DNA of 64,000 nucleotides from Candidatus Omnitrophota bacterium (GTDB lineage Bacteria > Omnitrophota > Gorgyraeia > Gorgyraeales > Gorgyraeaceae). Every line of letters starts with the position of its first letter. Position 1 is the first letter of the stretch. Positions 7,230 to 58,563 of the stretch are shown piece after piece. Location of the stretch: contig DNHS01000056.1 of the NCBI GenBank assembly GCA_003485765.1, positions 8,064 through 72,063 of the forward strand, read 5' to 3'. Under the pieces are notes generated by a model. The model did not search any database. It saw only the letters and a program-made list of their open reading frames with translations, and was not told the origin of the DNA. The translations under genes were made by a program, and so were the position numbers.

Positions 7230-8237
7230 TCAACTTTTTATTAATTTCAAGACAATATTTGTTCTATCTTTTGCAACACTTATGCCTGCTGGTAAGTTAA
7301 CTATTGAGTTCGCAGGCCTGTTATTAATTAAATCTTCCATTTCCTTCCAGTGCTGATACGTAAATCTTCTCAGGTCACCCTTGAATTCTTCCAGGGCAGC
7401 CCTTAAAATTCTTTTTCTTATAGCTTCTGGCTGCTTTTTAAATTTCTTGATATCTATTAGAATCTCTTCCTGCCTGACTTTCGACACGCTCTTAAATTTT
7501 CTATTTGCATATTTAATTAGAAATTCATTCTCCACTTGTAAGTTCTCTGCCATATTAGCAAGGACTTCCTTGATATTAGAATTAAAATCTTTTTCCAAAA
7601 GAGGTATTAATTCCAGCCTGATTTTATTTCTTGTAAAGATAGTTTTCTCGTTCGAAGAATCTTTTCTGAATTCAAGGCCTGTTTCTGAAATAAAAGCCTC
7701 CACATCTTTTCTGGATATTTCTATAAGCGGCCTTATTATTTTAAACCCCTGCATATCTTTAACAGGGCTAATCCCTCCCAAGCCTTTCATGCCAGCTCCT
7801 CTTATTATCCTCATAAGAACTGTCTCAGCCTGATCATCCCTTGTATGGCCAACTGCTATTTTATCCACGCCTCTTTCTTTTGCAACCCGCTTAAAAAAAT
7901 CATATCTCTCAAACCTTGCAGCCTCTTCTGGAGAAATCCCTTTTTCCTTACTAATCCTTGGGACATCTATTTCTTCCCAAGCAATTTCAAGACTGTATTT
8001 TTTCGCAAGCTCTTCGCAAAATTTCCTGTCAGCTCTGGATTCTTCTCCTCTAAACCTGTGGTCCAAGTGAGCAATCAATATGGTTAATGAATATTCTTTC
8101 TTCAGATCGCATAACACATGAAGCAGGGTAACTGAATCAGGCCCTCCCGAAAGACCTACCAGAACACTATCATTTTTCTTTAACATATTATATTTTTTTA
8201 TGGTGGATTTAACTTTGTCTAGAAAAGTGGCAGGCAT
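7230..8237 (-). CDS. tilS: tRNA(Ile)-lysidine synthetase
   Basis: 335 aa. PP-loop SGGPDS near the N-terminus. Typical tilS-ftsH synteny. Confidence 0.85.
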   Translation of the reverse strand: MPATFLDKVKSTIKKYNMLKKNDSVLVGLSGGPDSVTLLHVLCDLKKEYSLTILIAHLDHRFRGEESRADRKFCEELAKKYSLEIAWEEIDVPRISKEKGISPEEAARFERYDFFKRVAKERGVDKIAVGHTRDDQAETVLMRIIRGAGMKGLGGISPVKDMQGFKIIRPLIEISRKDVEAFISETGLEFRKDSSNEKTIFTRNKIRLELIPLLEKDFNSNIKEVLANMAENLQVENEFLIKYANRKFKSVSKVRQEEILIDIKKFKKQPEAIRKRILRAALEEFKGDLRRFTYQHWKEMEDLINNRPANSIVNLPAGISVAKDRTNIVLKLIKS

Positions 8238-8250
8238 TATATTTTTGTAA

Positions 8251-8327
8251 TGGTAGCGGCGAGTGGATTTGAACCACTGACACGCCGGGTATGAGCCGAC
8301 TGCTCTGCCAGGCTGAGCTACGCCGCC
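8251..8327 (-). tRNA. tRNA with CAU anticodon (elongator Met or Ile2/lysidine substrate), CCA encoded
   Basis: GGCGGCGTAGCTCAGCCTGGCAGAGCAGTCGGCTCATACCCGGC...GGTTCAAATCC...CGCCGCTACCA. Immediately upstream of and co-oriented with tilS. Confidence 0.8.
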
Positions 8328-10426: not shown

Positions 10427-11157
10427 ATTGCTATTATTGCAAGGCCTTTTAGGGTAAGCTCTGGGTCTATTTTATCAATACTTTCGCAATAGGGCCCTAT
10501 AAGTTTAGAAAAACCCCCTGTAGCTATAACCTTGGCATTTCTCGAATACCGTTTTTTCAGCTTATACACTATGCCATCGCATAAACTGCTGAAACCATAT
10601 ACGATCCCTATAAGCATGCTTTCCTTTGTTTCTTTACCCAATATACCTTTTGGTTTTTTGATAATAACTTTTGGCAGAAGCGCTGTCTTTTCATACAATG
10701 CCCACAATGAAATCCCTGGGCCAGGCGCTATAACTCCGCCAATATATTGCCGCTTCTCGTTTACAATATCTATTGTTATGGCTGTGCCAAAATCCACAAC
10801 TATACATGCCCCACCGTATAGCTCATACGCAGCCCTGGCATTCACAAGCCTGTCAGAACCTACTTGCTCAGGGTTTTTGTAAAGATTCTTAACCCCGCTG
10901 TCCACATCTCTTCCAACAACTATGCAATTTATGTTAATTGTTTTTTTAACAGCCTTTTCTACATTTTTTAAAGCAATAGGCACTACGCTAGTTACAATCA
11001 CAGAATCTATAACCTTAAGATAAAGCTTTAATTTTACCTCATAGTCTCCAGCCAAATCACCAGAATACGTAGGTATTCTAAAAGCCCTCTTTAAAACCTT
11101 TTTATCAAAAATGCCATTATGAATACTTGTATTGCCAATATCAATTGCTAACAGCAT
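10423..11157 (-). CDS. coaX: Type III pantothenate kinase
   Basis: 244 aa. MLLAIDIGNTSIHNGIF ASKHA-fold N-terminus typical of CoaX. Confidence 0.85.
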   Translation of the reverse strand: MLLAIDIGNTSIHNGIFDKKVLKRAFRIPTYSGDLAGDYEVKLKLYLKVIDSVIVTSVVPIALKNVEKAVKKTININCIVVGRDVDSGVKNLYKNPEQVGSDRLVNARAAYELYGGACIVVDFGTAITIDIVNEKRQYIGGVIAPGPGISLWALYEKTALLPKVIIKKPKGILGKETKESMLIGIVYGFSSLCDGIVYKLKKRYSRNAKVIATGGFSKLIGPYCESIDKIDPELTLKGLAIIAI

Positions 11158-15261: not shown

Positions 15262-17895
15262 CTACAGATCTTCAATAGTCTTTCCCAACCTATCTATTTG
15301 TTCTCTGAGCTTCTCAGCCTTTTCCTGCTCAGCCCTGACTACGCTTTCAGGCGCGTGATCCATGAAATTTTTATCCTTCAATTTCTTTTCTGTAAACACA
15401 ATCTGTTGCTTTAATAAATCCTGCTTCTTTACCAGCCTGGCCTTTTCTGCCTCCACGTCTATTACCCCCTCCAGAGGAATAAATATATTAAACTCTTCTG
15501 TAACAGCGCTGAGAGAGCTCTTCGGCCTTATAAAATTTTCATCTATTGTCAATTTCTCAAGATGAGCCAGATTTTTGATATATTCCGCGTTATTGGATAC
15601 TACAGAACCAGCTCCTTGTTTCAATGGCGCAAGCCCTACTGTCAATTTTTTAGAATAAGCTATATTCATATCAGAACGAATATTCCTTATATTGACTATA
15701 ATATTTTTTACTATCTCTATATCGGACTCTATTTTTTTATTTATATAATGCTTATCTGCTTCGGGCCACGCTGCAATCATTATGCTGTCTCTTTCTCTTA
15801 TGCTCTGCCATATGGCCTCTGTCACAAACGGCATAAAAGGATGTAATAATTTCAGCGAATTTTCTAACACATGTATTAAGATTTCTCCTGTTCTCTGCTC
15901 TTTGCTCTCCGCGCTTTGCCCTATAATTTGCGGCTTTACCATCTCCACATACCAATCGCAAAAATCATGCCAAAAGAAATCATATAACAAGCTCTCCGCT
16001 TCATTAAATCTATAATTTTTCAATGCCCTAGTCACAGCCTCTATGGTTCTATTTAATCTGCTCAATATCCACCTGTCAGCTATAGACAGCTTTTCTTCTG
16101 CTCTATGCTCTACGCGCTCTGCCCTCTGCTCGATATTCATCAACACAAACCTTGACGCATTCCATATCTTATTCGCAAAATTCCTGCCTATCTCAAATTT
16201 TTCTTTTGATAAGAATACGTCCTGGCCAGCAGAGGTTATGGATATAATGCTAAACCTTAAAGCATCTGCGCCAAATCCATCTATTATCTCCAATGGGTCT
16301 ATTATATTCCCCAGAGATTTTGACATCTTCTTGCCTGTTGCGTCCCTGACAGTCCCGTGTATATAAACATCGCTGAACGGAATCTCTTTTATGAATTCCT
16401 TGCCTGACATAATCATCCTTGCGACCCAGAAAAATAATATCTCAGGCGCGGTTACCAGAACAGAGGTTGGGTAAAAATACTCCATGTCTTTTGTTTTTTC
16501 AGGCCACCCGAGAGTTGAAAATGGCCACAGCCACGACGAGAACCATGTATCCAACACATCCTCATCCTGTTTCAATTCTACGCTTCCGCACTTTTGGCAT
16601 TTTTCAGGCGTAACTTTTGAAACAATAACAGCGTTACATTTCTGACAATAGTAAACAGGCAGGCGATGTCCCCACCATATCTGCCTTGAGATGCACCAGT
16701 CCTTTATATTCTCCATCCAATTCAGATAAACCTTTGTCCATCTCTTTGGGTGGAATTTAATTTTTCCGCTTCTGACCGCTTCTATTGCAGGTTCTGCCAA
16801 TGGCTTCATTCTCACAAACCACTGCAAAGATAGATACGGCTCTATTACAGTATGGCACCTGTAACAATGCCCTACTGCGTGGTCATGTTTTTCTGTTTTT
16901 ATCAATAATTTCTTTTCTTCAAGTTCAGCTACTATTAACTTTCGAGCCTCAAATCTATCCAGGCCATTGAATCTGCCTGCATTTTCATTCATCCTTCCGT
17001 CAGGCCCCATGACAGTTATTGGTTCTAAATTATGCCGTTTTGCCATTTCAAAATCATTAGGGTCATGAGCAGGCGTAACTTTTACAGCGCCTGTGCCGAA
17101 TTTTTTATCCACAAAATCATCCGCAATAATGTTTATCTCTTTCCCAACAATAGGCAATATTAATTTCTTGCCCATTAATTTCTTGTATCTCCTATCCTTG
17201 GGATTTACCGCCACTGCAACATCTCCAAGCATAGTCTCCGGCCTAGTGGTCGCCACCACCACTCCTTTACCCTCTTTAAACGAATACAGTATATAGTAAA
17301 GCTTCCCCTCCACATCCTGATGAGGCGCTTCTTCGTCAGAAAGAGCTGTCTGGCACCTGGGGCACCAGTTGATTATATAATTGCCCCTATAGATCAAGCC
17401 TTTATTATAGAGTTGGACAAATGCTTCCAAAACTGCTTCTGAAAGGCCTTTATCCATGGTAAAACGCGTTCTCTCCCAGTCGCATGAAGCGCCCAGTCTT
17501 TTAAGCTGCATGATAATAGTATTCCCGTATTTCTCCCTCCACTTCCATACCTCTTCTACAAACTTTTCCCTTCCAAGCCCCTGCCTAGTGATGCCTTTTT
17601 CCCGCAGATTTCTTTCCACAACATTTTGCGTAGCTATTCCAGCATGGTCCGTGCCAGGCACCCATAAACTCGCAGATCCTTGCATCCTTTTCCATCTTAT
17701 AAGAATATCCTGTAATGTATTGTTCAGCGCGTGCCCCATATGGAGAATTCCTGTAACATTGGGCGGAGGAATTGTTATGGTAAAAGGTTTCTTGGAAGGA
17801 TCAGGCTCTGCATGAAAAAGCCTGCTATTTTCCCATTTAGAATAAATAGACTCTTCGTGATCTTTTGGATTATATCTTGGAGGTATGTCTTTCAT
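15262..17895 (-). CDS. valS: Valyl-tRNA synthetase
   Basis: 877 aa. HMGH (HIGH-class) and KMSKS motifs, C-terminal coiled coil. Confidence 0.95.
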   Translation of the reverse strand: MKDIPPRYNPKDHEESIYSKWENSRLFHAEPDPSKKPFTITIPPPNVTGILHMGHALNNTLQDILIRWKRMQGSASLWVPGTDHAGIATQNVVERNLREKGITRQGLGREKFVEEVWKWREKYGNTIIMQLKRLGASCDWERTRFTMDKGLSEAVLEAFVQLYNKGLIYRGNYIINWCPRCQTALSDEEAPHQDVEGKLYYILYSFKEGKGVVVATTRPETMLGDVAVAVNPKDRRYKKLMGKKLILPIVGKEINIIADDFVDKKFGTGAVKVTPAHDPNDFEMAKRHNLEPITVMGPDGRMNENAGRFNGLDRFEARKLIVAELEEKKLLIKTEKHDHAVGHCYRCHTVIEPYLSLQWFVRMKPLAEPAIEAVRSGKIKFHPKRWTKVYLNWMENIKDWCISRQIWWGHRLPVYYCQKCNAVIVSKVTPEKCQKCGSVELKQDEDVLDTWFSSWLWPFSTLGWPEKTKDMEYFYPTSVLVTAPEILFFWVARMIMSGKEFIKEIPFSDVYIHGTVRDATGKKMSKSLGNIIDPLEIIDGFGADALRFSIISITSAGQDVFLSKEKFEIGRNFANKIWNASRFVLMNIEQRAERVEHRAEEKLSIADRWILSRLNRTIEAVTRALKNYRFNEAESLLYDFFWHDFCDWYVEMVKPQIIGQSAESKEQRTGEILIHVLENSLKLLHPFMPFVTEAIWQSIRERDSIMIAAWPEADKHYINKKIESDIEIVKNIIVNIRNIRSDMNIAYSKKLTVGLAPLKQGAGSVVSNNAEYIKNLAHLEKLTIDENFIRPKSSLSAVTEEFNIFIPLEGVIDVEAEKARLVKKQDLLKQQIVFTEKKLKDKNFMDHAPESVVRAEQEKAEKLREQIDRLGKTIEDL

Positions 17896-46125: not shown

Positions 46126-47022
46126 TTAGATTATACTATGCCTTTTTATCCTGGTCAAGAAAAAATTTCCAATAATATAACAATACATCTTGATCTCGTA
46201 TAATAATATAAACGGTAAATTTATTAAAAAACCAGCTATTGAATCATTTTTTTTCATGCATTTATATCTATTCCTTATATATTTTTTCTTTAATTCATCT
46301 GATATGCCTCTAAAGATGTCATTGCGAGGCCGTAGGCCAAAACAATCTTTATTTTCAATAACAGCCGTCGCGCCTCTCTCATGATACGCTGTTGCCATAG
46401 GATTATAATACGCCTTCCATCCCTTTTTCTGCGCCCTCCAGCATAAATCCAAGTCTTCATAGTATATCTCAAAGGTTTCATCAAAATACCCGTTTTTATC
46501 TTTTATATCGTCTAACATAACTTTTTTCATAAGCATGCACGAGCCGCTTACGCCAAAAACATATTCTGGTTTCTCGTGCTGACCTTTATCTAGTTTCCCA
46601 TACCCTCTCTCTAATGGCTTTCTGTTTCTGGCTACAAATAATCCCGTAGAATCTATTGTCTTTTTATCCGTCCTGAAAATCTTCCCGCTTACCATGCCTA
46701 TTCTTTTATCTAAGTTAAAAGAACTTAACGCCTCTTTTAAATAATCCTTATCCAGCACGCAATCGCTGTTTAAGCACAGTATAAAATCCCCCTTCGCCTC
46801 TTTTATGCCTTGATTGTTTGCCTTGCAAAAAAACAAGTTTTCTGTATTTTGCAATAATTTAACTTCAGGATACATGGCATTAACCATCCCACTGCTAGCG
46901 TCTAAAGAACTATTATCTACTACTATTACTTCTTTATCGCCAAAACTCTGCGTCATCACAGAATCTATGCAGCCTTTCAACAAATCTTTTCTATTATAAT
47001 TTACTATTATTACTGATATCAT
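46126..47022 (-). CDS. Glycosyltransferase family 2 (last gene of the RiPP-like operon; candidate peptide glycosyltransferase)
   Basis: 298 aa. ISVIIVNYNRKDLL...VVDNSS..., DxD-type motif (LNSDCV). Packed against the B2-like gene. Confidence 0.7.
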   Translation of the reverse strand: MISVIIVNYNRKDLLKGCIDSVMTQSFGDKEVIVVDNSSLDASSGMVNAMYPEVKLLQNTENLFFCKANNQGIKEAKGDFILCLNSDCVLDKDYLKEALSSFNLDKRIGMVSGKIFRTDKKTIDSTGLFVARNRKPLERGYGKLDKGQHEKPEYVFGVSGSCMLMKKVMLDDIKDKNGYFDETFEIYYEDLDLCWRAQKKGWKAYYNPMATAYHERGATAVIENKDCFGLRPRNDIFRGISDELKKKYIRNRYKCMKKNDSIAGFLINLPFILLYEIKMYCYIIGNFFLTRIKRHSII

Positions 47023-47027
47023 AATTT

Positions 47028-47447
47028 TTAAATAATTATATTACGAGGAGGAAAAATAAAACATACCTTAAAATCTTCGTTCATCTGAGGCTGAAGCTGC
47101 GCAAGATATGGTTTATCATCTAACGTAAGCCAGGCATGGCCATATATCTTTTCACTGTCGCCTTTTACGCCTATATTAATCCTGACTTCGATGCCTTTTT
47201 CCCTCAAAAATTTATAAAGAATCAAAGATCTTTTAAGACAGGTCCCTCGCCTGCTAAAAAATGGCGCTCGCAGCTTAAAAAATAAATCAAGATATTTTGT
47301 TATCTTTGATATATTCCATTCTCTTAATTTAGGAGGCCTGCAAGGCGTCCATGATTTAAGGATTTCAGGAAGAGGTTTTATATGTATTATGACTGGCAGA
47401 ATAAAAAATAGATAAGAAACTCTTGCAAAAAGAAAAATATCTTTCAT
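47028..47447 (-). CDS. Transglutaminase-like cysteine protease, lasso-peptide B2 / McjB C-terminal-domain family (candidate leader peptidase)
   Basis: Putative Cys/His/Asp triad within CLKRSLILYKFLREKGIEVRINIGV...GHAWLTLDD. Start chosen at MKDIF (47447), forming an ATGA overlap with the GT4 stop. Confidence 0.6.
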   Translation of the reverse strand: MKDIFLFARVSYLFFILPVIIHIKPLPEILKSWTPCRPPKLREWNISKITKYLDLFFKLRAPFFSRRGTCLKRSLILYKFLREKGIEVRINIGVKGDSEKIYGHAWLTLDDKPYLAQLQPQMNEDFKVCFIFPPRNIII

Positions 47448-48685
47448 GGCGATCTGCCTTCTGACTTGAGCGAATGCTCTAATAAAAGCGCCTTGCAAGC
47501 CATGACCCACTGCTGGATGCTTTCATCAAAATCCTCTGTCTTTTCAGAAAACTTCCTTGCCTTCTGGCCTATTTTTATCGCTATATCAGGGCTTTTTACG
47601 ATTGACTGCAATCTTCGCGCAAACTCCTTCGTATTATCAGGATCGACTATATAGCTATTTACGCCATCCTGCAGCATGCGGTATACCCCTTTTTCAGCCA
47701 CGCCTTTCCCAATAATAACACACCTGCCGCATGCCATTGCCTCCCTGGCAATCTTAGGATAATGCGTGTTTTTGGGAAGATAAGGCTCTTCAGAGGTTTC
47801 TGGAGAAACAACGCAGGTAGCTGAATTTATAAGAGCCGGCATTCTCCATGGAGCTTGAAAAGGTAGAAACACGGCTTTCCCGCCTAATCCTTTTGAGTGG
47901 ACATACTTCTTCAGCAATAATGATCTTTCATTATTACCCACCACAAATATCAGCCTGAATTTTTCTTTTTTTATGCTACTGCACGCATCTACAAAATTAA
48001 ATGATTTTTTAAGCTTTGAAACTTTGCCTATATATAAAAATGTAGTCATTTTTTCTTTTTTGTTTTTCCTTGAATATAAAGACATATCGAATGGCTTAAC
48101 GTCGGGATGAAACGCTTTTAAGTCTATAGATCTTCGCAATCCAATTATAAATTTATCCCGGCTTATTTTACATCTCCTTAAAATTTTCCGGCTATGTCGC
48201 TGTGTAGTCGATATCTTATCAGCGCCTTTAAATATTTCTATAAAAAGTGATTTTAAAGACGGCGAATCAAATAACCGGGTTATATCGCTTCCAGCGTGAG
48301 CAACCATAAATGGTTTTTTAGTGATATATTTTGCCATCAAACCAGCCACTCCATAAGGCATAAGATATTCTGAATAAATAAGGTCTATGTCATATTTTCT
48401 TATGACCTCAATAGCTATATTGACTAACTTTGGAATATACGGATTGTATGAAGGAATAAAAAACGGCGTATCGCAAGCTGTGCTATGCACCCTTACGTTC
48501 TTTGGTTCAAATTGGCCAGGCTTATTTTCTAAGATTTCCTCGCGATAATCCCCTTCAACCTCCATGCAGTTAGTAACGACGTGCACCTTATGATTTAATT
48601 CGCCCAATCCTCTGGCTAACCAGTATATTCCGGATGATACCCCGCCTTCTATTGGAGGATACTTGCTAATAATGCATATCTTCAT
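47444..48685 (-). CDS. Glycosyltransferase family 1 (GT4-type)
   Basis: 413 aa. N-terminal KICIISKYPPIEGGVS and a C-terminal GT4 E-x7-E-like region. Confidence 0.75.
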   Translation of the reverse strand: MKICIISKYPPIEGGVSSGIYWLARGLGELNHKVHVVTNCMEVEGDYREEILENKPGQFEPKNVRVHSTACDTPFFIPSYNPYIPKLVNIAIEVIRKYDIDLIYSEYLMPYGVAGLMAKYITKKPFMVAHAGSDITRLFDSPSLKSLFIEIFKGADKISTTQRHSRKILRRCKISRDKFIIGLRRSIDLKAFHPDVKPFDMSLYSRKNKKEKMTTFLYIGKVSKLKKSFNFVDACSSIKKEKFRLIFVVGNNERSLLLKKYVHSKGLGGKAVFLPFQAPWRMPALINSATCVVSPETSEEPYLPKNTHYPKIAREAMACGRCVIIGKGVAEKGVYRMLQDGVNSYIVDPDNTKEFARRLQSIVKSPDIAIKIGQKARKFSEKTEDFDESIQQWVMACKALLLEHSLKSEGRSP

Positions 48686-49670
48686 ATTTATGTTTTATCA
48701 ACCTCTTTAAAATCAAAGATAAATTAGCAGGAGACTTTATTATATCTTTTCCGCCAAGAAGCAAATAAGAGCGGCATTGCTTAGCCAGCTTTTTCAAAAT
48801 CTCCATAGCTTCAACATGATGATCTCTAACCGGCTCAAGCGATGAGAACATAAGATTTTCAACTATCTTTATCATCGCTTCATTCGAAGAAAGAGGCATG
48901 AGTTTACTTTTCTTTTTATGCGTTATCGTAGGAAATACAATAAAATTCGGAGCAGAAGCTTTTTTATAACAAGCTTTACGCCTTGCGCATACCCCTGTCC
49001 CTTTTTCGTGATCCCTGCGCAGCATTCTGGTTGGAAACGGATAAACTTTCACCTTGGAATTTGAGCGGCATAAAAACGATATATCATCTCCGCGGCAAAT
49101 AAAACCAGCCTTAGTAAGATTTATAGAAATAGTGGTTTTTCCGTATCCGCTATCGCCCGGAAATAATATACTAACATCGCCCTTTGTCAAATAAGCTGCA
49201 TGTAAGGCGAAAAAACCTCTGATTCTAAAAAAATACATCAACATAATGCGGATAGAATTTCTAAAACTCCTTGGTTTAACCTGGCCTGTAGTAAACAACA
49301 AAATTTTATTTTGATGGTAAAGCCCTGCCATGGGCGAAATTTCGCCATAGTTTCCAAGATGCCTGAGATATCTTACATCTTTGATATCTTTAAAATACTG
49401 AGGCCCTTTAAAATCTTTAGAAACGCCGGGCTGCCAATCTGTTTCGGCCGGCATATCTAAAGGAATCTGAGAAAGGTCCTTGACTGAAATAACTACCATG
49501 GTAACATCAGGTTGCTTTTTTTTAACAATGTCTTTGACAAGATACATTTTGTCAATAGCTCTATAAAAAGAGCTGTTATCTGTCATTATCCTGACAGATA
49601 GACCTCCGATCAGACATGTTTCTGTGAACCTATAGCATTTATTAAAATATGGTGTAAAATCAATTTTCAT
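48666..49670 (-). CDS. HPr-kinase-related (HprK C-domain-like) P-loop kinase, candidate precursor-peptide kinase
   Basis: 334 aa. LHAAYLTKGDVSILFPGDSGYGKTTISINL...GDDISFL resembles the HprK Walker-A region. Such kinases accompany PqqD/B2 genes in lasso-peptide loci. Confidence 0.55.
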   Translation of the reverse strand: MKIDFTPYFNKCYRFTETCLIGGLSVRIMTDNSSFYRAIDKMYLVKDIVKKKQPDVTMVVISVKDLSQIPLDMPAETDWQPGVSKDFKGPQYFKDIKDVRYLRHLGNYGEISPMAGLYHQNKILLFTTGQVKPRSFRNSIRIMLMYFFRIRGFFALHAAYLTKGDVSILFPGDSGYGKTTISINLTKAGFICRGDDISFLCRSNSKVKVYPFPTRMLRRDHEKGTGVCARRKACYKKASAPNFIVFPTITHKKKSKLMPLSSNEAMIKIVENLMFSSLEPVRDHHVEAMEILKKLAKQCRSYLLLGGKDIIKSPANLSLILKRLIKHKYEDMHY

Positions 49671-50817
49671 TTGTAAAAGATGGGCTAAAAGCTGTACTTA
49701 TATGCAGGTTTTTCTTTTCCGGCCATCTCCTAAAAGCTGTTTGAAGAGGAAGCTTTTTAAAAACTCGCCAACATTGCGGGTCTGGCGCGGATAATTGATT
49801 GAAGTATGCATGGCTTATGCACAGCGCTCCTCCATGACAGAATTTAAAATTGCGGCATTTCTGGCACAAAGAGTGCGCATTATTCAAATTTCTCAACTGC
49901 CATAATATATCTGAAGAAAAATATACTTCTAGCAGGCTCTTTTGCAGGACATTTCCTACTTTTATAGGAAGCCGCCTGCATGCTAGAACATCGCCATTAG
50001 GAAACAAAGACAATGTCCTGCCTTCGACCACTCCGCAGCACACTTTCCTATGAGCCATGTCTCCTGTTAAAGCGCTGTTAAATATGCCGTCCTCGCATCC
50101 ATTGGCAATATGAAGCTTGCTATGTTTCGCCCTTAATTCAATGCGCATTTTTCTTTTCCAATGATAAATTTTTCTTAATTCTTCCGGGCTTAATAAGTTA
50201 AACTTGTTTTCTTTGCCCTTTCCGATAGGGACAAACCTCCTTATGCCAACCTTTCCAACTCCTAGCTTTTCGCATAGCTGGACAAGCGCAGGCACATCAG
50301 CCATATTTTTCCTTGTCAGCGTAAAAGAAACAGCGGTTCGCATGCCTGTGTTTACCAATAACTTGGCTTTCTCAATTACTTTATCAAAGCTGCCTTTTTC
50401 GCGTATATTGTCATTATTTTCCTGCATGCCTTCAAGGCTCAACTGCACCCTTTTAACTCCCAAAGATTTCAACTTTAAGGCATTTTTCTCGTTAATAAGA
50501 GAGCTGTTGGTCAAAATGCCTACGGTAAATCTGCCCTTATTATATTTATTTACAAATTTCAATAACCGGAAAAAATCTTTTCTGATAAATGGTTCTCCGC
50601 CGGCAAAGTTAAGATAAGAATGGCCCTTTGGCGAGTTTAAAGCTTTAAGCAAATCCAGATACTGGAAAAAGATATCGCATAATTTAGCGAATGGCAGCTC
50701 TTTCATGTTTTCTTTTTCCCTATAACAATGCTTGCAGCTCCAATTACACCTCTCAGTTATATGCCACTGAAGGGTAAAGGCGCGAAAAAAATCAAAATAA
50801 TGAGGTATGGTTTCCAT
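49660..50817 (-). CDS. Radical SAM enzyme with C-terminal SPASM domain (RiPP maturase candidate)
   Basis: 385 aa. CNWSCKHC (CxxxCxxC) near the N-terminus. C-terminal Cys cluster (CCGVVEG...C...CQKCRNFKFCHGGALC) typical of SPASM auxiliary Fe-S domains. Confidence 0.8.
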   Translation of the reverse strand: METIPHYFDFFRAFTLQWHITERCNWSCKHCYREKENMKELPFAKLCDIFFQYLDLLKALNSPKGHSYLNFAGGEPFIRKDFFRLLKFVNKYNKGRFTVGILTNSSLINEKNALKLKSLGVKRVQLSLEGMQENNDNIREKGSFDKVIEKAKLLVNTGMRTAVSFTLTRKNMADVPALVQLCEKLGVGKVGIRRFVPIGKGKENKFNLLSPEELRKIYHWKRKMRIELRAKHSKLHIANGCEDGIFNSALTGDMAHRKVCCGVVEGRTLSLFPNGDVLACRRLPIKVGNVLQKSLLEVYFSSDILWQLRNLNNAHSLCQKCRNFKFCHGGALCISHAYFNQLSAPDPQCWRVFKKLPLQTAFRRWPEKKNLHISTAFSPSFTNEN

Positions 50818-50825
50818 ACTATGTA

Positions 50826-51107
50826 TTAAGCTGTAATTTCTACCATCTTCTCTTTTATAAGTTTTTTTATCTGGCGATTTACGCTAGCGAATGCTTTATC
50901 TTTATCAACGTCATATTCATCCACTATCGCATCGGTTATTTCTCCAATAGTCTTTTTGCCATCCAAAAGCTGCCAAATCCTTACTCCCGCCTCATTAAGC
51001 CTATAAAAATACTTTGTTTCAAAATTTAAAAGAACAGCTTCTTTGTTATCCAGTTCAGTATAGATTATGGACGGCTTAACTCTTAAGCGCTGTTTGGGGT
51101 TTATCAT
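50826..51107 (-). CDS. PqqD-family protein (RiPP recognition element), copy 1
   Basis: 93 aa. Pattern L.N.T...Y.LN..G..IW.LLDG..T..EI matches PqqD/RRE. Confidence 0.7.
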   Translation of the reverse strand: MINPKQRLRVKPSIIYTELDNKEAVLLNFETKYFYRLNEAGVRIWQLLDGKKTIGEITDAIVDEYDVDKDKAFASVNRQIKKLIKEKMVEITA

Positions 51108-51372
51108 ATAAACTCAATACGCCTGTTTTTGATAACTTATTTATAAAGCTGCTGGCATCTTTTTTCGCTGTCTCATAATTAACGTCGAATTCTTTAAGTA
51201 CGGCGTCTATAATTTTATTTACCTTTGTTTTGCCATCCGCCAAATTCCATATAAAGCTTCCCATGGGATTAAGAAAGTAAAAAGCATTGTCCTTTAGATT
51301 TAAAATAACTGTTTCTCCGTCTATTATTCTACAGTGAAGCTTTTTACCAGGTAATACGTATTTGTCAAGCAC
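51076..51372 (-). CDS. PqqD-family protein (RiPP recognition element), copy 2
   Basis: 98 aa. IDGETVILNLKDNAFYFLNPMGSFIWNLADGKTKVNKII PqqD pattern. GTG start with AGGGAGG RBS. Overlaps copy 1 by 32 nt. Confidence 0.7.
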   Translation of the reverse strand: MLDKYVLPGKKLHCRIIDGETVILNLKDNAFYFLNPMGSFIWNLADGKTKVNKIIDAVLKEFDVNYETAKKDASSFINKLSKTGVLSLYDKPQTALKS

Positions 51373-51515: not shown

Positions 51516-51659
51516 CTAAGCGCAGGAGGTACAACTGGCGCAGCTGGAACAACTCGTGCCTACCCGATTATTCAGTTTTCCTTCTTTTTTCAACTGCGGT
51601 TCTTTAAAAAACTTTTTGTATTCTGGTTTTTGATATTGTTTTTTATTATTCTTGTCCAT
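51516..51659 (-). CDS. Candidate RiPP precursor peptide (47 aa): MDKNNKKQYQKPEYKKFFKEPQLKKEGKLNNRVGTSCSSCASCTSCA
   Basis: Not in the ORF track (<60 aa). Manual translation of the minus strand. AAGGAGGA RBS 5 nt upstream of the ATG, own promoter, Lys-rich leader, C-terminal C-x-x-C-x-x-C-x-x-C Ser/Thr-rich core. First gene of the operon. Confidence 0.6.
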   Translation of the reverse strand: MDKNNKKQYQKPEYKKFFKEPQLKKEGKLNNRVGTSCSSCASCTSCA

Positions 51660-51685
51660 ATACATCCTCCTTATCTTATATTAAT

Positions 51686-51901: not shown

Positions 51902-53059
51902 ATGCATAACGCATTATCCAAATCCAGTCTTTTATTGAATAAAAATTCTCCTCTTCCAAGTCTAAATAACGCTGAATTAGAGATAGTCCTTAAAGAATCT
52001 TTATACCATAGCCTTACAAATCTTATCTATTTAACTATAAAAACATCGGATAGATACAAAGAATTAATTCATCATCCTGCATTTTCTCGTCTAAAAAATA
52101 GCTATTTTATGACAGTTAAGGATAATATGCTGAAACAGAAAGAGTTTATTGATATTAGCAATGCTTTTGAAACCGCTGACATACTTATGGTTCCTATCAA
52201 AGGCATGGCTTTATTATTTGATGTTTTCCAAGATAATTTAAGCCGGCCTATGGCTGATATAGATATTTTAATAAAGAAAAATGACCTGGAAAAAGCTAAA
52301 CAGCTCATGCAAGGTCTTGGCTATAAAGCAGCTCTCGGAAATTTTTCAGAAAGATATTATACTGATTATTACCATCATCTGCCTTTTTTTAAAGCATCTA
52401 TGGTAGAACTGCATTGGGATCTTGCAGTTCCAAGGCCGAATAAAATTATTTTACCTGAGTTGTGGGATAGATTGCAAAAGATTGAGCATAATAACGCCTT
52501 TTTAAACATCCTCTCTCCAGAAGACACGATATTCTCGCTTGCGCTTCATTTAAGAAGATTTAACACACCATTCTCATTAAAGCCCATATACGATATTTAT
52601 AGAATAATGGAAAAATACGATAAAGAAATAGATTGGGAGTATCTATCAAAATACAGCGGATTAAACAGGCTAAACTCTATTATCTATTACTCCCTGGTTT
52701 CTGTTAAAACAATATTTGAATATCCTATATCTGAAAAAGAACTGGGGATGTTTTACCCTGGTATATTAAGAGCGTCTTTATTAAAATTATTTATAAATAG
52801 GGTCAAGAATAGAGGCGTTACGAGACTTATAAAATCTGCTTCTTTTAGAAAATACGCCTATATATTTTTACGTTTTTTATTATATGACCGCTTGTGGGAT
52901 CTTATAAAATTCATAATACTTATACCTGAGGAAGAATTCAGCCGTTTCTATTCAATCGAATTTCCCTCAAAAGTATCATCCGCTATTTACAGTCTTAGAT
53001 TTTTGGCCATGCCTTTTCTAGCCTTATTAGACAGGTTTTCTAAAAAATCATCTATATAG
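51902..53059 (+). CDS. Nucleotidyltransferase-family protein (PF14907-like uncharacterised NTase)
   Basis: 385 aa. Pol-beta-like NTase core hinted by ...GMALLFDVF...RPMADIDILI. Divergent from the precursor operon. This family co-occurs with HprK-like kinases in lasso-type loci. Confidence 0.5.
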   Translation: MHNALSKSSLLLNKNSPLPSLNNAELEIVLKESLYHSLTNLIYLTIKTSDRYKELIHHPAFSRLKNSYFMTVKDNMLKQKEFIDISNAFETADILMVPIKGMALLFDVFQDNLSRPMADIDILIKKNDLEKAKQLMQGLGYKAALGNFSERYYTDYYHHLPFFKASMVELHWDLAVPRPNKIILPELWDRLQKIEHNNAFLNILSPEDTIFSLALHLRRFNTPFSLKPIYDIYRIMEKYDKEIDWEYLSKYSGLNRLNSIIYYSLVSVKTIFEYPISEKELGMFYPGILRASLLKLFINRVKNRGVTRLIKSASFRKYAYIFLRFLLYDRLWDLIKFIILIPEEEFSRFYSIEFPSKVSSAIYSLRFLAMPFLALLDRFSKKSSI

Positions 53060-56466: not shown

Positions 56467-57527
56467 GCTATGCGCGAGGTAGGCATAAGCTCTTTTACTG
56501 ACTCGACTACCTTTTCCATAGATATCTTATCCATACAGGTTTGTTTCTTATCGCATTTATTCTTATAACATGGGGCGCACTTTGCTTCTGTGATTATTTT
56601 AGAGCCTAGATTATATAAATCTATTTCCTGAGCACAGGTAGGGCCAAAAAGCGCAACAACCGGTTTTTTAAGCGCTATTGCCATGTGCATTGCAAGCGTA
56701 TCGGCTGCTATAATCAGCCCGCAATTATTAATCAATGCAGTGAATTCCTTAAGGCTATTGTCGCATCCGCTATCAATTACTTTACCATCCATTGCTTTTC
56801 TAATATATTTATGGATATCCTTTTCAAAAGGCCCTCCAAGTAATATTATTTTCACATTTAATTCTTTACACAATAACTCTATTAGACTAACTAACCTATT
56901 TTTTCCTAAGTTCTTATTTGCAAAAACCCTGCCTGCCCCTGTATTGATGCCAATAACAATATCGTCTTTATCTAACCCGTTCTTCTTGAAAAAACTGTCT
57001 GCAAAATCAATATGTTTTTTATCTAACTTTAATTCATAAGGATTGTTTTGATAGTTAAGTTTTGCTGTTTCAAATATTAGCTCCTGATAGGTCTTTTTAT
57101 TTTTAAAAAATTTTAACTCATCATCTATGCCTAACAGATAAGAATAACTCGCTTCCTTATTCAAAGGGCATAACTTGCCTTTTTTATCCAAGCCAAAGCC
57201 ATATTTTTCAGAAGCCCTGACAGACATAGCCAGAGAAGCTGCTTCAATAGCCTTATCTAAAGATATAACAATATCGAACTCTTCTCCGTTTAGCAGTAAA
57301 ACGCTCTTTTTGCTATAAACCAAAATCCGGTTTATGCTATCATTGCCTTCTAAAAGTTCCAGCGCTAACTCTTCGACAATCCATGTTATATGACTATATG
57401 GATATTTTTTCTTTAATCCAGATAAAAGCGTAGTTGTCCTTAAAACATCTCCTGCTGAAGCTAATTTGATAATTAAAATCTTTTTACTATTACAAGAAAT
57501 TGACATGTTCTCTAGGCTGTTTAACAT
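56463..57527 (-). CDS. Glycosyltransferase family 9 (LPS heptosyltransferase-like)
   Basis: 354 aa. KILIIKLASAGDVLRTTTLL... is the GT9 N-terminus. C-terminal GPTCAQEI... region. Confidence 0.75.
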   Translation of the reverse strand: MLNSLENMSISCNSKKILIIKLASAGDVLRTTTLLSGLKKKYPYSHITWIVEELALELLEGNDSINRILVYSKKSVLLLNGEEFDIVISLDKAIEAASLAMSVRASEKYGFGLDKKGKLCPLNKEASYSYLLGIDDELKFFKNKKTYQELIFETAKLNYQNNPYELKLDKKHIDFADSFFKKNGLDKDDIVIGINTGAGRVFANKNLGKNRLVSLIELLCKELNVKIILLGGPFEKDIHKYIRKAMDGKVIDSGCDNSLKEFTALINNCGLIIAADTLAMHMAIALKKPVVALFGPTCAQEIDLYNLGSKIITEAKCAPCYKNKCDKKQTCMDKISMEKVVESVKELMPTSRIA

Positions 57528-58563
57528 TCCAAAGTATCTGATTAAATGTATTATCTCTGCACAATGGTATGCAATTGCGAAAATCTATCCTATTTATAGC
57601 TTTAACCCTTTCTTCGGAATTCCAGATATACTTAAAACTTTTCTTTTTAAGGTCCCCTATGCAATATTTATTATAACCCCTAGTGTGGCAGCATATATAC
57701 ATCTTTCCCGTAGCGGATATCACAGTGGCAAACTGCTGGCCGTAACATTTCTTATAATACCTTCCAAACTTAGAGTCATGTGCCATCTCGTATTTATGCT
57801 GGGAATACAAAACCTTGAATTTGTTGCCTGAATATTTAAGGCAATTTACTATCTCATCCTGGACATCTGCCCAATAATACCTGAACTTTCCTCCGTTATG
57901 GATCTGCATAGGCCTGAATTGCAGATAATCAACACCTAATCTATCTGCTAGCAGCGTTGCCTTCATCATATCCGGTTTTGTATAATCACTAGTTAAGAAA
58001 CCTATTCCTACATTGCATAAACTTTTTATTTTTTTCTTTATTTTTACCAATAAAGCTATATTTTTTATGATTTTATTAAACTCGTTTCCATCAAGGCCAT
58101 GCGTCAGTTTAAATACTCCGGGCGATCCTGCATCCAAAGATACCCTCAGCCATGTGCAGTTATTTAAAAGAACGCTCGATGACTTATGGTCTAATAATGA
58201 CCCGTTCGTTATGAAACCCACGTCAAGGCCCTTTGAGCGGGCAAGCTTAACCATGTCCAGCGTGCAGGGATTGCATAAGGGCTCTCCGCCTCCTGTAAAT
58301 ATTAATCCTTTTATTTTGTTTTTTGCAAGCTGCAAGATAATTTTTTTAGCAAGTCTGGGGGTAAGAAAACTTCTATCATTGATTCTGAAATAATTTACAA
58401 CGCACTCCTGGCATCTATGATTACATATATTTGTCATATCCAATTCTACTGTGATTGGAGGCGTATTCTTTCCATTCAACCAATCATTTACCCTATCTAA
58501 GTGCTTCAATATCTTGTCGGAGCTAAACTGCCTCACATCAATCTGTCTTAAATCCATGCCCAC
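57490..58563 (-). CDS. Radical SAM protein with C-terminal Cys-rich (SPASM/twitch-like) region, embedded in the glycan locus
   Basis: 357 aa. CNHRCQEC (CxxxCxxC), GGGEP motif, C-terminal CC...C...C..C cysteines. Confidence 0.7.
   Translation of the reverse strand: MGMDLRQIDVRQFSSDKILKHLDRVNDWLNGKNTPPITVELDMTNICNHRCQECVVNYFRINDRSFLTPRLAKKIILQLAKNKIKGLIFTGGGEPLCNPCTLDMVKLARSKGLDVGFITNGSLLDHKSSSVLLNNCTWLRVSLDAGSPGVFKLTHGLDGNEFNKIIKNIALLVKIKKKIKSLCNVGIGFLTSDYTKPDMMKATLLADRLGVDYLQFRPMQIHNGGKFRYYWADVQDEIVNCLKYSGNKFKVLYSQHKYEMAHDSKFGRYYKKCYGQQFATVISATGKMYICCHTRGYNKYCIGDLKKKSFKYIWNSEERVKAINRIDFRNCIPLCRDNTFNQILWNVKQPREHVNFL

What the first reader, a model, noticed from the sequence alone, without database searches (positions are those of the whole stretch)
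50826..51372. Two tandem, overlapping PqqD-family RRE genes
Most RiPP clusters encode a single RRE. Here two divergent PqqD-like proteins (93 and 98 aa) are encoded back to back with a 32-nt overlap, immediately downstream of the precursor. This suggests separate leader-recognition partners for different tailoring enzymes, for example one for the rSAM/SPASM enzyme and one for the B2 protease or the kinase, or a heterodimeric RRE.
Basis: inference. Interest (0 to 1): 0.55.

Follow-up and report, generated by a model that had tools for sequence, protein, structure and literature searches.

The report
Two specialised leader-binding proteins, one precursor
A peptide natural-product gene cluster from an uncultured Omnitrophota bacterium encodes two different small leader-binding (PqqD/RRE) proteins, and its single precursor carries two different docking motifs; each motif appears to match one of the two proteins, a natural version of the "chimeric leader" trick used in peptide engineering.

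Summary
On the minus strand, PqqD-A (51372..51076, 98 aa) and PqqD-B (51107..50826, 93 aa) overlap by 32 nt. Both are full-length PF05402 domains (E about 1e-17) and both give confident RRE models closest to the lasso protein TbiB1. Both are under purifying selection. The pair, with the same 32-nt overlap, recurs in four diverged lineages.

They are not redundant copies.
- PqqD-A keeps the canonical helix-3 Asp and Phe. It groups with the single PqqDs of the same SPASM radical-SAM family, whose leaders carry one Y-x-x-P-x-h motif.
- PqqD-B has Ser and Gln at those positions and belongs to a Ser-type RRE subfamily. Where that type stands alone, leaders carry F-x-E-P-x-h motifs. In five of seven loci a lasso-type B2 protease lies beside or near it.

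The window's single precursor carries both motifs in tandem (YQKPEYKK, then FKEPQLKKEG). The second sits at lasso spacing (-17/-14/-12) from a conserved (V/I)-G site. A fifth locus with unlinked A-like and B-like PqqDs has the same two-motif leader.

Best reading (inferred, not shown): each RRE docks on its own motif. A recruits the rSAM/SPASM enzyme and B presents the leader to B2. A cooperative heterodimer is not excluded. This is a new variant of known RRE logic.

The parts
51516..51659 (-). Precursor peptide gene, 47 aa from the second ATG, which is well spaced from the AAGGAGG site (the mechanical ORF starts at 51665): MDKNNKKQYQKPEYKKFFKEPQLKKEGKLNNRVG|TSCSSCASCTSCA
   Evidence: It is the only small ORF between 44 and 64 kb with a leader-type motif and a Cys-rich tail. 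Homologous precursors are found in L001, L084, L097 and L094.
51612..51635 (-). Leader motif 1, Y9-Q-K-P-E-Y-K-K (Tyr-type RRE recognition sequence). Proposed docking site of PqqD-A.
   Evidence: It matches the single motif of relatives that have only an Asp-type PqqD, such as YEKPRLKK in L002 and YEKPRMEK in L004. It is conserved in all four lineages with the tandem pair and in L094.
51582..51608 (-). Leader motif 2, F18-K-E-P-Q-L-K-K-E (Phe-type recognition sequence; Gly27 follows). Proposed docking site of PqqD-B.
   Evidence: It matches the leaders of loci that have only a Ser-type PqqD: FVEPKLEKHG (L095), FIEPQLIKHG (L100), FMEPRM (L099). F, P and L lie at -17/-14/-12 from the conserved (V/I)-G site in all four lineages.
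51558..51563 (-). V33-G34, the predicted end of the leader (Val/Ile at -2, Gly at -1) and putative B2 cleavage site.
   Evidence: (V/I)G is at residues 33-34 in the window, L001, L084 and L097. Ile/Val(-2) is documented for phosphorylated lasso peptides (PMC10368454). The cleavage site itself is inferred.
51076..51372 (-). PqqD-A, 98 aa, an Asp-type discrete RRE (N35, D72, F76, L80).
   Evidence: Pfam E = 3.6e-17. AF2 pLDDT 92.8, helix 3 spans residues 66-82. Fold match to TbiB1. It is closer than B to the single PqqDs of L002 and L011. dN/dS 0.20.
50826..51107 (-). PqqD-B, 93 aa, a Ser-type discrete RRE (N38, S75, Q79, L83).
   Evidence: Pfam E = 9.6e-18. AF2 pLDDT 93.3, helix 3 spans residues 69-85. 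Fold match to TbiB1. Ser/Gln replace the canonical Asp/Phe in all four lineages. Its nearest relatives worldwide are Ser-type. dN/dS 0.18.
51076..51107 (-). 32-nt out-of-frame overlap between the end of PqqD-A and the start of PqqD-B.
   Evidence: The overlap has the same length in L001, L084 and L097.
49660..50817 (-). Radical SAM/SPASM peptide maturase (CNWSCKHC family). Proposed client of PqqD-A.
   Evidence: Pfam Radical_SAM plus SPASM. The best NCBIfam match is the ACGX-system rSAM, below its cut-off. It is 50% identical to the L002 enzyme and 44% to the L011 enzyme, each of which is directly preceded by an Asp-type PqqD.
48666..49670 (-). HprK-like (ScmC-like) P-loop kinase.
   Evidence: Weak hits to HprK_rel_A, ScmC and Hpr_kinase_C. 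Homologues occur in loci of both RRE types.
47444..48685 (-). GT4 glycosyltransferase within the operon.
   Evidence: Homologues are found in L001, L003 and L004.
47028..47447 (-). Lasso-type B2 cysteine protease (transglutaminase core; TCLKRSL ... GHAWL). The probable start is Met22 of the mechanical ORF 47028..47510. Proposed client of PqqD-B.
   Evidence: NCBIfam lasso_biosyn_B2 at 45 bits against a cut-off of 33; Pfam Transglut_core3 E = 9.4e-12. It is 41% identical to the B2 proteins of L099 and L100, which lie near Ser-type PqqDs.
46126..47022 (-). GT2 glycosyltransferase, last gene of the run.
51902..53059 (+). Divergently transcribed NTP_transf_5 nucleotidyltransferase. This enzyme family accompanies HprK-like kinases in paeninodin-like lasso and LPP clusters.
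   Evidence: Pfam E = 2e-41. Homologues occur in L011, L085, L087, L089, L099 and L100. Its role in lasso and LPP clusters is described in PMC13381572.

Best explanation
The cluster makes one Cys-rich ribosomal peptide whose leader has two parts, and each of the two PqqD proteins is a recognition element for one part.

PqqD-A is a canonical RRE. It keeps the Asn, the helix-3 Asp that hydrogen-bonds the Tyr hydroxyl, and the Phe that divides the binding cleft. It is proposed to bind the N-terminal Tyr motif (YQKPEYKK) and recruit the rSAM/SPASM maturase to the CxxC-repeat core, as the single PqqD does in related clusters.

PqqD-B belongs to a Ser-type RRE subfamily in which the Asp is Ser and the Phe is Gln. 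It is proposed to bind the adjacent Phe motif (FKEPQLKKEG). That motif has no hydroxyl to bond and lies at lasso spacing (-17/-14/-12) from a conserved (V/I)-G site. B would present that site to the lasso-type B2 cysteine protease for leader removal, acting as a split B1/B2 peptidase without a lasso cyclase.

The HprK-like kinase, the NTP_transf_5 enzyme and the glycosyltransferases add further decorations. Which RRE they use, if any, is unknown. The conserved 32-nt overlap probably couples translation so that A and B are made together.

Shown: the two genes, their fold, their conservation, the residue differences, the two leader motifs, and the co-occurrence patterns. Inferred: which RRE binds which motif, which enzyme each serves, the cleavage site, and the chemistry.
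For: 1. Both are intact, conserved RREs. The overlapped pair recurs in four lineages.

2. The two belong to different subfamilies.
- PqqD-A scores 45.8 and 53.1 bits against the single PqqDs of L002 and L011; PqqD-B scores 23.5 bits and no hit.
- A carries N/D/F/L at the positions Popov et al. 2026 showed to contact the YxxP motif (LppB N33, D70, F74). B carries N/S/Q/L.
- 9 of the 13 single-domain proteins among B's 15 best matches in 1.84 billion representatives have Ser there. Asp dominates from rank 61.

3. The leader motifs track the RRE type.
- All eight sequence families of loci with only an Asp-type RRE and an identified precursor have Y-x-x-P-x-h.
- The three loci with only a Ser-type RRE and an identified precursor have F-x-E-P-x-h (L095, L099, L100) (p = 0.006).
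- All five loci with both types have Y motif plus F motif with starts 9 residues apart. These are the window, L001, L084, L097 and L094; in L094 the two PqqDs are 7 kb apart.

4. B2 tracks the Ser-type RRE. B2 is seen in 5 of 7 Ser-type loci and lies next to the PqqD in L093 and L100. It is seen in 0 of 22 loci with no Ser-type PqqD, 21 Asp-type and one His-type.

5. The window's rSAM is 44-50% identical to Asp-family enzymes and 22-30% to Ser-family rSAMs. Its B2 is 41% identical to Ser-family B2s.

6. The spacing F(-17)/P(-14)/L(-12) from (V/I)(-2)G(-1) is invariant in four lineages. In the Ser-only loci L095 and L100 the second F motif has the same spacing to a Thr(-2).

7. RRE-dependent presentation of leaders to B2, and Ile/Val(-2), are established for lasso systems (PMC13381572; PMC10368454).
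Against:
- All tandem-pair loci belong to one clade, so the co-occurrences rest on few independent events. B2 could be checked in only two of the four tandem lineages because the L084 and L097 contigs are too short.
- Two Ser-type loci (L094, L095) show no B2 within 8 kb, so Ser-type RREs are not tied to B2 alone. They also always sit near a radical-SAM enzyme and an HprK-like kinase.
- L095 and L100 have two tandem F motifs but only one PqqD. A second motif therefore does not by itself call for a second RRE.
- In the window, PqqD-B rather than PqqD-A abuts the rSAM gene.
- The two motifs start 9 residues apart. A bound RRE covers about 12 leader residues in the crystal structures, so simultaneous independent binding may be hindered.
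- Both proteins score below NCBI's cut-offs for lasso B1 models.
- Gln at the cleft-dividing Phe position is rare even among Ser-type relatives, where Leu is usual.
Confidence: 0.55

Rival explanations
1. Cooperative heterodimer. A and B are made in equal amounts from the overlapped genes and assemble side by side on the two adjacent motifs. They form one composite leader-binding platform that all the tailoring enzymes use, with no one-RRE-one-enzyme division of labour.
For: The 32-nt overlap is strictly conserved in four lineages, which suggests coupled expression. The motifs start only 9 residues apart, so two bound RREs would touch. A and B are always adjacent in this clade.
Against: In L094 the A-like and B-like PqqDs lie 7 kb apart, each next to different enzymes, yet the leader still has both motifs. 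Each type works alone in many other clusters. Solved discrete lasso and LPP RRE-leader complexes are described as one RRE per leader.
Confidence: 0.2
2. PqqD-B serves the HprK-like kinase (or the nucleotidyltransferase or a glycosyltransferase) rather than the B2 protease. The B2 link is then a by-product of shared ancestry of a kinase/B2/RRE module.
For: Every Ser-type locus seen has an HprK-like kinase. The window kinase scores slightly higher against Ser-family kinases (57-66 bits) than against Asp-family kinases (35-50 bits), except L100 at 50 bits. In the Bsf lasso system B1 accelerates the kinase as well as assisting B2 (PMC10368454).
Against: Relatives with only an Asp-type PqqD also have HprK-like kinases and NTP_transf_5 enzymes (L002, L011, L085, L087), so these enzymes do not need a Ser-type RRE. 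B2 is the only enzyme found exclusively with Ser-type RREs. The two roles do not exclude each other.
Confidence: 0.15
3. Two merged or neighbouring pathways, as in the Bacillus loci where two RRE copies belong to adjacent lasso and LPP clusters. Each RRE would have its own precursor, and the second precursor has been missed.
For: There is precedent: loci with two RREs in Bacilli turned out to be two co-located clusters, each with its own precursor (PMC13381572). The window cluster is a mosaic of components from two families.
Against: Between 44 and 64 kb only one small ORF combines a leader motif with a plausible core, and it carries both motif types. The same two-motif precursor is conserved in five loci. 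All genes but one lie in a single co-directional run.
Confidence: 0.07
4. Redundant or decaying duplicate: one copy, most likely B with its altered helix-3 residues, no longer binds peptide and persists by chance or as a structural adaptor.
For: B lacks the Asp and Phe that matter for YxxP binding in solved complexes. LppB D70A weakened binding.
Against: dN/dS is 0.18 and B is intact in four lineages down to 58% identity. The Ser/Gln residues are themselves conserved. B belongs to a large Ser-type subfamily whose members are the only RRE in their clusters. The Asn that fixes the Pro kink is retained.
Confidence: 0.05

Closest known systems
Split lasso-peptide leader peptidase B1 (discrete PqqD-like RRE) plus B2 (transglutaminase-fold cysteine protease), e.g. 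TbiB1 and FusB1/TfuB1
   Same: Both window PqqDs are closest in sequence and fold to TbiB1. A B2 protein above NCBI's cut-off is in the operon. The leader has [Y/F]xxPx[L/Y] motifs, the second at the canonical -17/-14/-12 spacing.
   Different: No lasso cyclase (Asn-synthetase homologue) was found in the 64-kb window. There are two RREs instead of one. The first motif residue for the B2-linked RRE is Phe, and that RRE lacks the Asp/Phe pair. Val/Ile rather than Thr is at -2. The core is Cys-rich and the cluster includes an rSAM/SPASM enzyme. Both RREs score below the lasso_PqqD cut-offs.
LPP (linear polyphosphorylated peptide) clusters and the LppB/PbaB1 discrimination between Y and W motifs (Popov et al. 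2026, PMC13381572)
   Same: The gene set overlaps: discrete RRE, HprK-like kinase and NTP_transf_5, embedded in a polysaccharide locus with no cyclase. The logic is also the same: changes at the helix-3 Asp position of the RRE go with a change of the first aromatic residue of the leader motif.
   Different: In that system two RREs keep two different precursors apart. Here two RREs appear to read two motifs on one precursor. The pairing here is Asp/Tyr against Ser/Phe, not Asp/Tyr against Gln,Gly/Trp. The peptidase is B2, not an SpI-like enzyme. An rSAM/SPASM enzyme is added. The phylum is Omnitrophota, not Bacillota.
PqqD-PqqE and other rSAM/SPASM maturases with a discrete peptide chaperone (PQQ, mycofactocin MftB/MftC; NCBIfam SynChlorMet ScmC/D/E/F, GeoRSP and ACGX systems)
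   Same: A small PqqD-family protein is encoded next to an rSAM/SPASM enzyme and a short precursor. The best NCBIfam matches of the window proteins are the ACGX rSAM, ScmD, ScmC and the GeoRSP PqqD.
   Different: All those matches are far below the curated cut-offs, so the cluster belongs to none of the named systems. As the models are named in NCBIfam, each of those systems has a single PqqD-family protein.
Clusters with several RRE-containing proteins (pearlin/3-thiaglutamate has three, RRE-Finder paper; thiopeptides) and engineered chimeric leaders (Burkhart et al. 2017, ACS Cent Sci; thiopeptides and this paper are from my own knowledge)
   Same: More than one RRE acts in one pathway. A leader that concatenates two recognition sequences lets two unrelated enzyme sets act on one core.
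   Different: In the known natural cases the RREs are mostly domains fused to enzymes of different folds. The chimeric leaders were man-made. Here two discrete paralogous PqqDs and a naturally two-part leader appear to do the same job.
Bsf phosphorylated lasso peptide (Duan et al. 2023, PMC10368454)
   Same: It combines a kinase, B1 and B2. Ile/Val is at leader position -2, and a YxxPxL motif is needed for both phosphorylation and cleavage.
   Different: In Bsf one B1 serves both the kinase and B2, and a cyclase is present. Here two RREs are present and there is no cyclase.

Membership tests
PqqD / RiPP recognition element (Pfam PF05402) | Significant full-length match to the PqqD profile | tested here: met
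   A scores 62.9 bits and B 64.7 bits against a cut-off of 23.4, both covering profile positions 1-67 of 67.
PqqD / RiPP recognition element (Pfam PF05402) | Winged helix-turn-helix fold: antiparallel beta sheet plus three helices, with short terminal strands | tested here: met
   AF2 pLDDT is 92.8 and 93.3, with strand and helix order as in LppB/PbaB1. Foldseek TM is 0.82-0.88 to TbiB1 and 0.69-0.78 to PqqD 5sxy.
PqqD / RiPP recognition element (Pfam PF05402) | Binds the leader of the cognate precursor | not testable with these tools
Only the co-variation of motif and RRE type speaks to this.
Lasso peptide B1 chaperone (NCBIfam NF033536 / NF033530) | Score above the curated model cut-off | tested here: not met
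   Against NF033536, A scores 52.0 and B 49.6 bits (cut-off 80). Against NF033530 they score 36.4 and 37.6 bits (cut-off 70).
Lasso peptide B1 chaperone (NCBIfam NF033536 / NF033530) | Partner B2 cysteine protease in the cluster | tested here: met
   The ORF at 47028..47510 matches lasso_biosyn_B2 at 45 bits (cut-off 33).
Lasso peptide B1 chaperone (NCBIfam NF033536 / NF033530) | Lasso cyclase (Asn-synthetase-like C protein) in the cluster | tested here: not met
   No homologue of the L003 Asn-synthetase-like protein was found among all ORFs of the 64-kb window. The Pfam scans of the neighbouring genes show none.
Lasso peptide B1 chaperone (NCBIfam NF033536 / NF033530) | Leader with [Y/W]xxPx[L/V/I/A/F/Y] at about -17/-14/-12 and Thr at -2 | tested here: inconclusive
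   Motif 2 (FKEPQL) has the right spacing to the conserved (V/I)-G site. However, it starts with Phe, and -2 is Val/Ile rather than Thr. The cleavage site is inferred.
Lasso peptide B1 chaperone (NCBIfam NF033536 / NF033530) | Conserved helix-3 Asp (hydrogen bond to Tyr) and cleft-dividing Phe | tested here: inconclusive
   Met by A (D72, F76). Not met by B (S75, Q79).
PqqD of PQQ biosynthesis (TIGR03859) | Score above cut-off, and pqqA/B/C/E neighbours | tested here: not met
   The scores are 26.5 and 25.3 bits against a cut-off of 46. No pqq genes are in the neighbourhood.
LPP system (Popov et al. 2026) | Core set of discrete RRE, HprK-like kinase, NTP transferase, SpI-like signal peptidase and MsbA-like transporter, with leader motif YxxPxVLxHQxIxFETxxS | tested here: not met
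   The RRE, kinase and NTP_transf_5 are present. There is no SpI-like peptidase (B2 instead) and no transporter in the run. The leader consensus differs, and an rSAM/SPASM enzyme is added.
ACGX / SynChlorMet / GeoRSP rSAM-SPASM systems (NCBIfam) | Component proteins above the curated cut-offs | tested here: not met
   rSAM_ACGX scores 180.6 bits against 400. ScmD scores 38-41 against 100. ScmC scores 23 against 125. The GeoRSP PqqD scores 21-38 against 100.

The most novel reading that the evidence does not exclude
Nature has built a chimeric leader. Two orthogonal pairs of RRE and recognition sequence act on one precursor: Asp-type RRE with Y-x-K-P, and a so far undescribed Ser-type RRE specificity class with F-x-E-P-x-L. 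The abutting motifs force an ordered hand-off: rSAM crosslinking through PqqD-A first, then B2 leader removal through PqqD-B. The cluster arose by fusing the recognition modules of two RiPP families.
Probability: 0.4. Interest if true: 0.72.

Novelty: new variant of a known kind. Interest (0 to 1): 0.6.

Why it matters
RREs are the address-readers of ribosomal peptide biosynthesis. How several enzymes share one leader, and in what order, is a practical question for genome mining and for engineering hybrid peptides. If the reading here is right, it would provide three things:
- a natural example of two discrete, paralogous RREs reading two adjacent addresses on one leader;
- a simple sequence rule (helix-3 Asp with Tyr motifs, Ser with Phe motifs) that extends the Tyr/Trp discrimination described in 2026;
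- a ready-made orthogonal RRE/motif pair for chimeric-leader designs.

It also flags a family of cyclase-less clusters that use B1/B2-type processing, rSAM enzymes, kinases and nucleotidyltransferases. These occur in uncultured phyla and their products are unknown.

Tried and rejected
1. Complex prediction.

2. A fused second RRE in single-PqqD relatives. The C-terminus of the L002/L004 methyltransferase looks RRE-like by eye. It is not supported: no Pfam hit, hhalign probability about 1%, hmmsearch 2-4 bits.

3. Simple rule of two motifs meaning two RREs. This was rejected as a general rule, because L095 and L100 have two tandem F motifs with one PqqD. What correlates with RRE type is the kind of motif (Y or F).

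4. Recent tandem duplication. Rejected: A and B are only 34% identical and their nearest relatives belong to different subfamilies.

5. Sequencing frameshift, or programmed frameshift producing an A-B fusion. Di-PqqD fusion proteins do exist. However, the same two frames and 32-nt overlap occur in four independent assemblies, and no slippery sequence is conserved in the overlap.

6. Regulatory structure between the precursor and PqqD-A. No terminator-like site was found, and the fold is no better than shuffled sequence (z = +1.45).

7. The beta-propeller 'Cake' hits of PqqD-A in the PDB are sums of many repeats of about 6 bits each and are spurious.

8. Literature searches for two RREs on one leader, bipartite leaders, and the SynChlorMet/ACGX/GeoRSP systems found nothing relevant.

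9. The other two rSAM/SPASM domains in the window (57490..58563, and the C-terminus of the 1648-aa protein) are not specifically related to the Ser-family rSAMs.
Full report
**What is there.** The window comes from an Omnitrophota metagenome-assembled genome. PqqD-B is 100% identical to a protein of "Omnitrophica bacterium GWA2_41_15".

On the minus strand a co-directional run encodes, in order:
- a 47-aa precursor (51659..51516)
- PqqD-A (51372..51076, 98 aa)
- PqqD-B (51107..50826, 93 aa)
- an rSAM/SPASM enzyme (50817..49660)
- an HprK-like kinase
- a GT4 glycosyltransferase
- a lasso-type B2 cysteine protease, above NCBI's cut-off
- a GT2 glycosyltransferase

An NTP_transf_5 nucleotidyltransferase is transcribed divergently. 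The surrounding genes form a glycan-assembly locus. No lasso cyclase homologue is present in the 64 kb.

**Checking the observation.**
- Both ORFs match the whole Pfam PqqD model, with E = 3.6e-17 and 9.6e-18.
- They are 34% identical to each other.
- PqqD-A has a strong ribosome-binding site before its GTG start. PqqD-B has only one possible start, an ATG 32 nt inside the end of PqqD-A, so the overlap is real.
- AlphaFold2 gives confident RRE folds, pLDDT 92.8 and 93.3. TbiB1, the lasso RRE solved with its leader, is the best structural match for both, with TM 0.82-0.88.
- Against the 83-87% identical homologues in L001, dN/dS is 0.20 for A, 0.18 for B and 0.12 for the rSAM. At 58-61% identity (L084) both remain intact.
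- The same pair with the same 32-nt overlap is present in four lineages: the window, L001/L032, L084 and L097.

**How unusual it is.** I fetched 83 loci through the rSAM enzyme. Only the window's own clade has two PqqDs. Twenty-four loci have one PqqD next to the enzyme. The rest are short contigs or other subfamilies.

In the literature, clusters with several RRE-containing proteins are known. Bacillus loci with two discrete RRE copies proved to be adjacent lasso and LPP clusters, each with its own precursor (Popov et al. 2026). I found no report of two discrete RREs reading one leader.

**The two copies are different kinds of RRE.** Popov et al. solved LppB and PbaB1 with their leaders. They showed three contacts:
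- a conserved Asn fixes the kink at the motif's Pro
- a helix-3 Asp hydrogen-bonds the Tyr hydroxyl of YxxP
- a helix-3 Phe splits the cleft into two pockets

Changing these positions switches the preference between Tyr and Trp leaders.

Mapping through ungapped alignments to LppB and TbiB1 gives:
- PqqD-A keeps all of these residues (N35, D72, F76).
- PqqD-B keeps the Asn (N38) but has S75 and Q79. All lie on helix 3 of the models.
- The Ser and Gln are conserved in the B copies of all four lineages.

PqqD-A is closer than PqqD-B to the single PqqDs of the closest rSAM relatives, scoring 45.8 against 23.5 bits for L002 and 53.1 bits against no hit for L011.

I also ran a full HMMER search of PqqD-B against 1.84 billion representative proteins. 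Nine of the 13 single-domain proteins among its 15 best matches carry Ser at the Asp position, and Asp dominates from rank 61. A and B therefore come from two RRE subfamilies. They are not a recent tandem duplication.

**The leader has two parts, and the parts track the RRE types.** The precursor reads MDKNNKKQ-YQKPEYKK-F-FKEPQLKKEG-KLNNRVG-TSCSSCASCTSCA.

| Loci | RRE type present | Leader motif |
|---|---|---|
| L002, L004, L011/L085, L087, L089, the large L003-type group, L041, L067 | Asp-type only | One Y-x-x-P-x-h motif, e.g. YEKPRLKK |
| L095, L099, L100 | Ser-type only | F-x-E-P-x-h motifs: PFVEPKLEFVEPKLEKHG, PFMEPRM, PFEEPKLTFIEPQLIKHG |
| Window, L001, L084, L097, and L094 (A-like and B-like PqqDs 7 kb apart, in a different enzyme context) | Both types | Tyr motif followed by Phe motif, starts 9 residues apart |

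Ser-type loci for which no precursor was identified are left out of the table.

Among loci with one RRE type, the association of Tyr with Asp and Phe with Ser has no exception: 8 sequence families against 3, p = 0.006. It also makes chemical sense, because a Phe has no hydroxyl for the Asp to bind.

No second precursor exists between 44 and 64 kb.

**Which enzymes each RRE serves.**
- The B2 protease is found only where a Ser-type PqqD is present. These loci are the window, L001/L032, L093 (adjacent, truncated, BLASTP E = 7e-9 to the window B2), L099 and L100/L101 (adjacent).
- B2 is found in none of 22 dereplicated loci that lack a Ser-type PqqD, 21 Asp-type and one His-type. Fisher p = 1.8e-4. 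The loci are related, so this overstates the independence of the data.
- The window B2 is 41% identical to the B2 proteins of L099 and L100.
- The window rSAM is 44-50% identical to enzymes of Asp-type loci and only 22-30% to the rSAMs of Ser-type loci.
- In all four tandem lineages the Phe motif lies at -17/-14/-12 from a conserved (V/I)-G site. This is the canonical lasso spacing, with Val/Ile at -2 as documented for phosphorylated lasso peptides.
- In the Ser-only loci L095 and L100 the second Phe motif has the same spacing to a Thr at -2.

The RRE's job of presenting the leader to the peptidase is established for lasso B1/B2 and for LppB/LppS.

**Mechanism I commit to.**
- PqqD-A docks on the Tyr motif and recruits the rSAM/SPASM enzyme to the CxxC-repeat core.
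- PqqD-B docks on the Phe motif and presents the (V/I)-G junction to B2.
- The kinase, the nucleotidyltransferase and the glycosyltransferases decorate the peptide. Which RRE they use, if any, is unknown.
- The conserved overlap couples the synthesis of A and B.

The cluster looks like a mosaic. PqqD-A, the SPASM rSAM and probably the nucleotidyltransferase resemble one family. PqqD-B and B2 resemble another.

Confidence is about 0.55 for the whole chain. It is above 0.9 that both proteins are functional, non-redundant RREs, and about 0.6 for the assignment of motifs to RREs.

**Caveats and rivals.**
- Nothing has been measured, and complex modelling was not possible.
- The tandem lineages form one clade.
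- Two Ser-type loci lack B2 within 8 kb. Ser-type RREs also always accompany an rSAM and a kinase, so B may serve the kinase as well or instead (rival, 0.15).
- L095 and L100 have two Phe motifs with one RRE, so motif number alone does not predict RRE number.
- The two motifs abut. A and B may therefore contact each other as a heterodimer on the leader (rival, 0.2) or bind in turn.
- Two merged pathways with a missed precursor (0.07) and a decaying duplicate (0.05) are unlikely.

**Comparison with known systems and novelty.** Both proteins are members of the PqqD/RRE family by profile and by fold. Neither reaches NCBI's cut-offs for lasso B1, PQQ PqqD, ScmD or GeoRSP PqqD.

The cluster is not a lasso cluster, because it has no cyclase. 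It is not an LPP cluster, because it has B2 rather than an SpI peptidase and has an added rSAM. It works like a combination of an rSAM-with-chaperone system and a split B1/B2 leader peptidase.

The closest conceptual precedents are:
- the Tyr/Trp discrimination between two pathways (Popov et al. 2026)
- the man-made chimeric leaders of Burkhart et al. 2017 (from my own knowledge)

Two discrete paralogous RREs matched to two motifs on one natural leader, and the pairing of Ser-type RREs with Phe motifs, appear not to have been described. I rate the finding a new variant of a known kind, with interest 0.6.

Noticed in passing
L094:8001-16300 (JGI Ga0434945_002589): A large mixed cluster carries both a Ser-type PqqD (8001-8300) and an A-like Asp-type PqqD (15462-15749) 7 kb apart. 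Around them are a B12-binding rSAM, ThiF, YcaO, a nitroreductase, an HprK-like kinase and a further rSAM. A precursor near 10857 has the same leader with a Tyr motif and a Phe motif. No B2 lies within 8 kb.
   Followed up: partly
L095:5742-8279 and L100:1609-4762: This appears to be a family of cyclase-less, lasso-like clusters: precursor, HprK-like kinase, non-SPASM rSAM and Ser-type PqqD, plus B2 and NTP_transf_5 in L100. Their leaders carry two tandem F-x-E-P-x-L motifs with starts 7 residues apart. The second motif sits at lasso spacing from a Thr at -2, and the cores are short and Gly/Phe-rich (FFGTFSA, NGFFGSFPIPG).
   Followed up: partly
Proteins P0068, P0126, P0131 (also P0061, P0108, P0145, P0165): Single polypeptides contain two or three PqqD domains. 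In P0068, P0126 and P0131 RRE domains are followed by leader-like Y-x-x-P-x-L motifs, after each domain in P0068 and P0126 (e.g. PYEQPKL, AYEPPRL) and after the first in P0131. This looks like RREs fused to their own recognition sequences. Their genomic context is unknown.
   Followed up: no
L003:7397-14854 and about 18 similar loci (L054-L081): This is a distinct, widespread sub-family. The gene order is rSAM/SPASM, then PqqD, then a precursor with leader YEKPRI...M.FP...IEA and an invariant core CKQCSSCHxCR. These are followed by a 1118-aa protein with a metallo-beta-lactamase domain, a squalene-hopene-cyclase-like protein and an Asn-synthetase homologue.
   Followed up: no
L087:6820-10723: A single Asp-type PqqD cluster (ScmC-like kinase, PqqD, rSAM/SPASM, NTP_transf_5) contains a Peptidase_S24-like gene (weak hit). 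This recalls the SpI-like leader peptidase of LPP clusters. It suggests that relatives without B2 use a different leader peptidase.
   Followed up: no
L002:9117-10733 and L004:6654-8231: A methyltransferase of about 530 aa lies between the rSAM and the precursor. Its C-terminal 100 residues look RRE-like by eye, but they are not significant by Pfam, hhalign or hmmsearch.
   Followed up: yes
window:58776-63722 (-) and window:57490-58563 (-): A 1648-aa protein fuses two GT2 domains, a GT4 domain and a C-terminal rSAM/SPASM domain. A separate 357-aa rSAM/SPASM enzyme sits among glycosyltransferase and O-antigen-ligase genes. Radical-SAM enzymes embedded in a glycan-assembly locus are unusual.
   Followed up: partly
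window:51076-51372 (-), residues 9-49 of PqqD-A: PqqD-A gives apparently strong PDB sequence hits (E about 1e-11) to designed beta-propeller 'Cake' proteins. The scores are sums of 7-9 repeats of about 6 bits each, each matching a short 'DG.lY.lNp.G...W' string. This is an artefact to beware of in automated annotation.
   Followed up: yes
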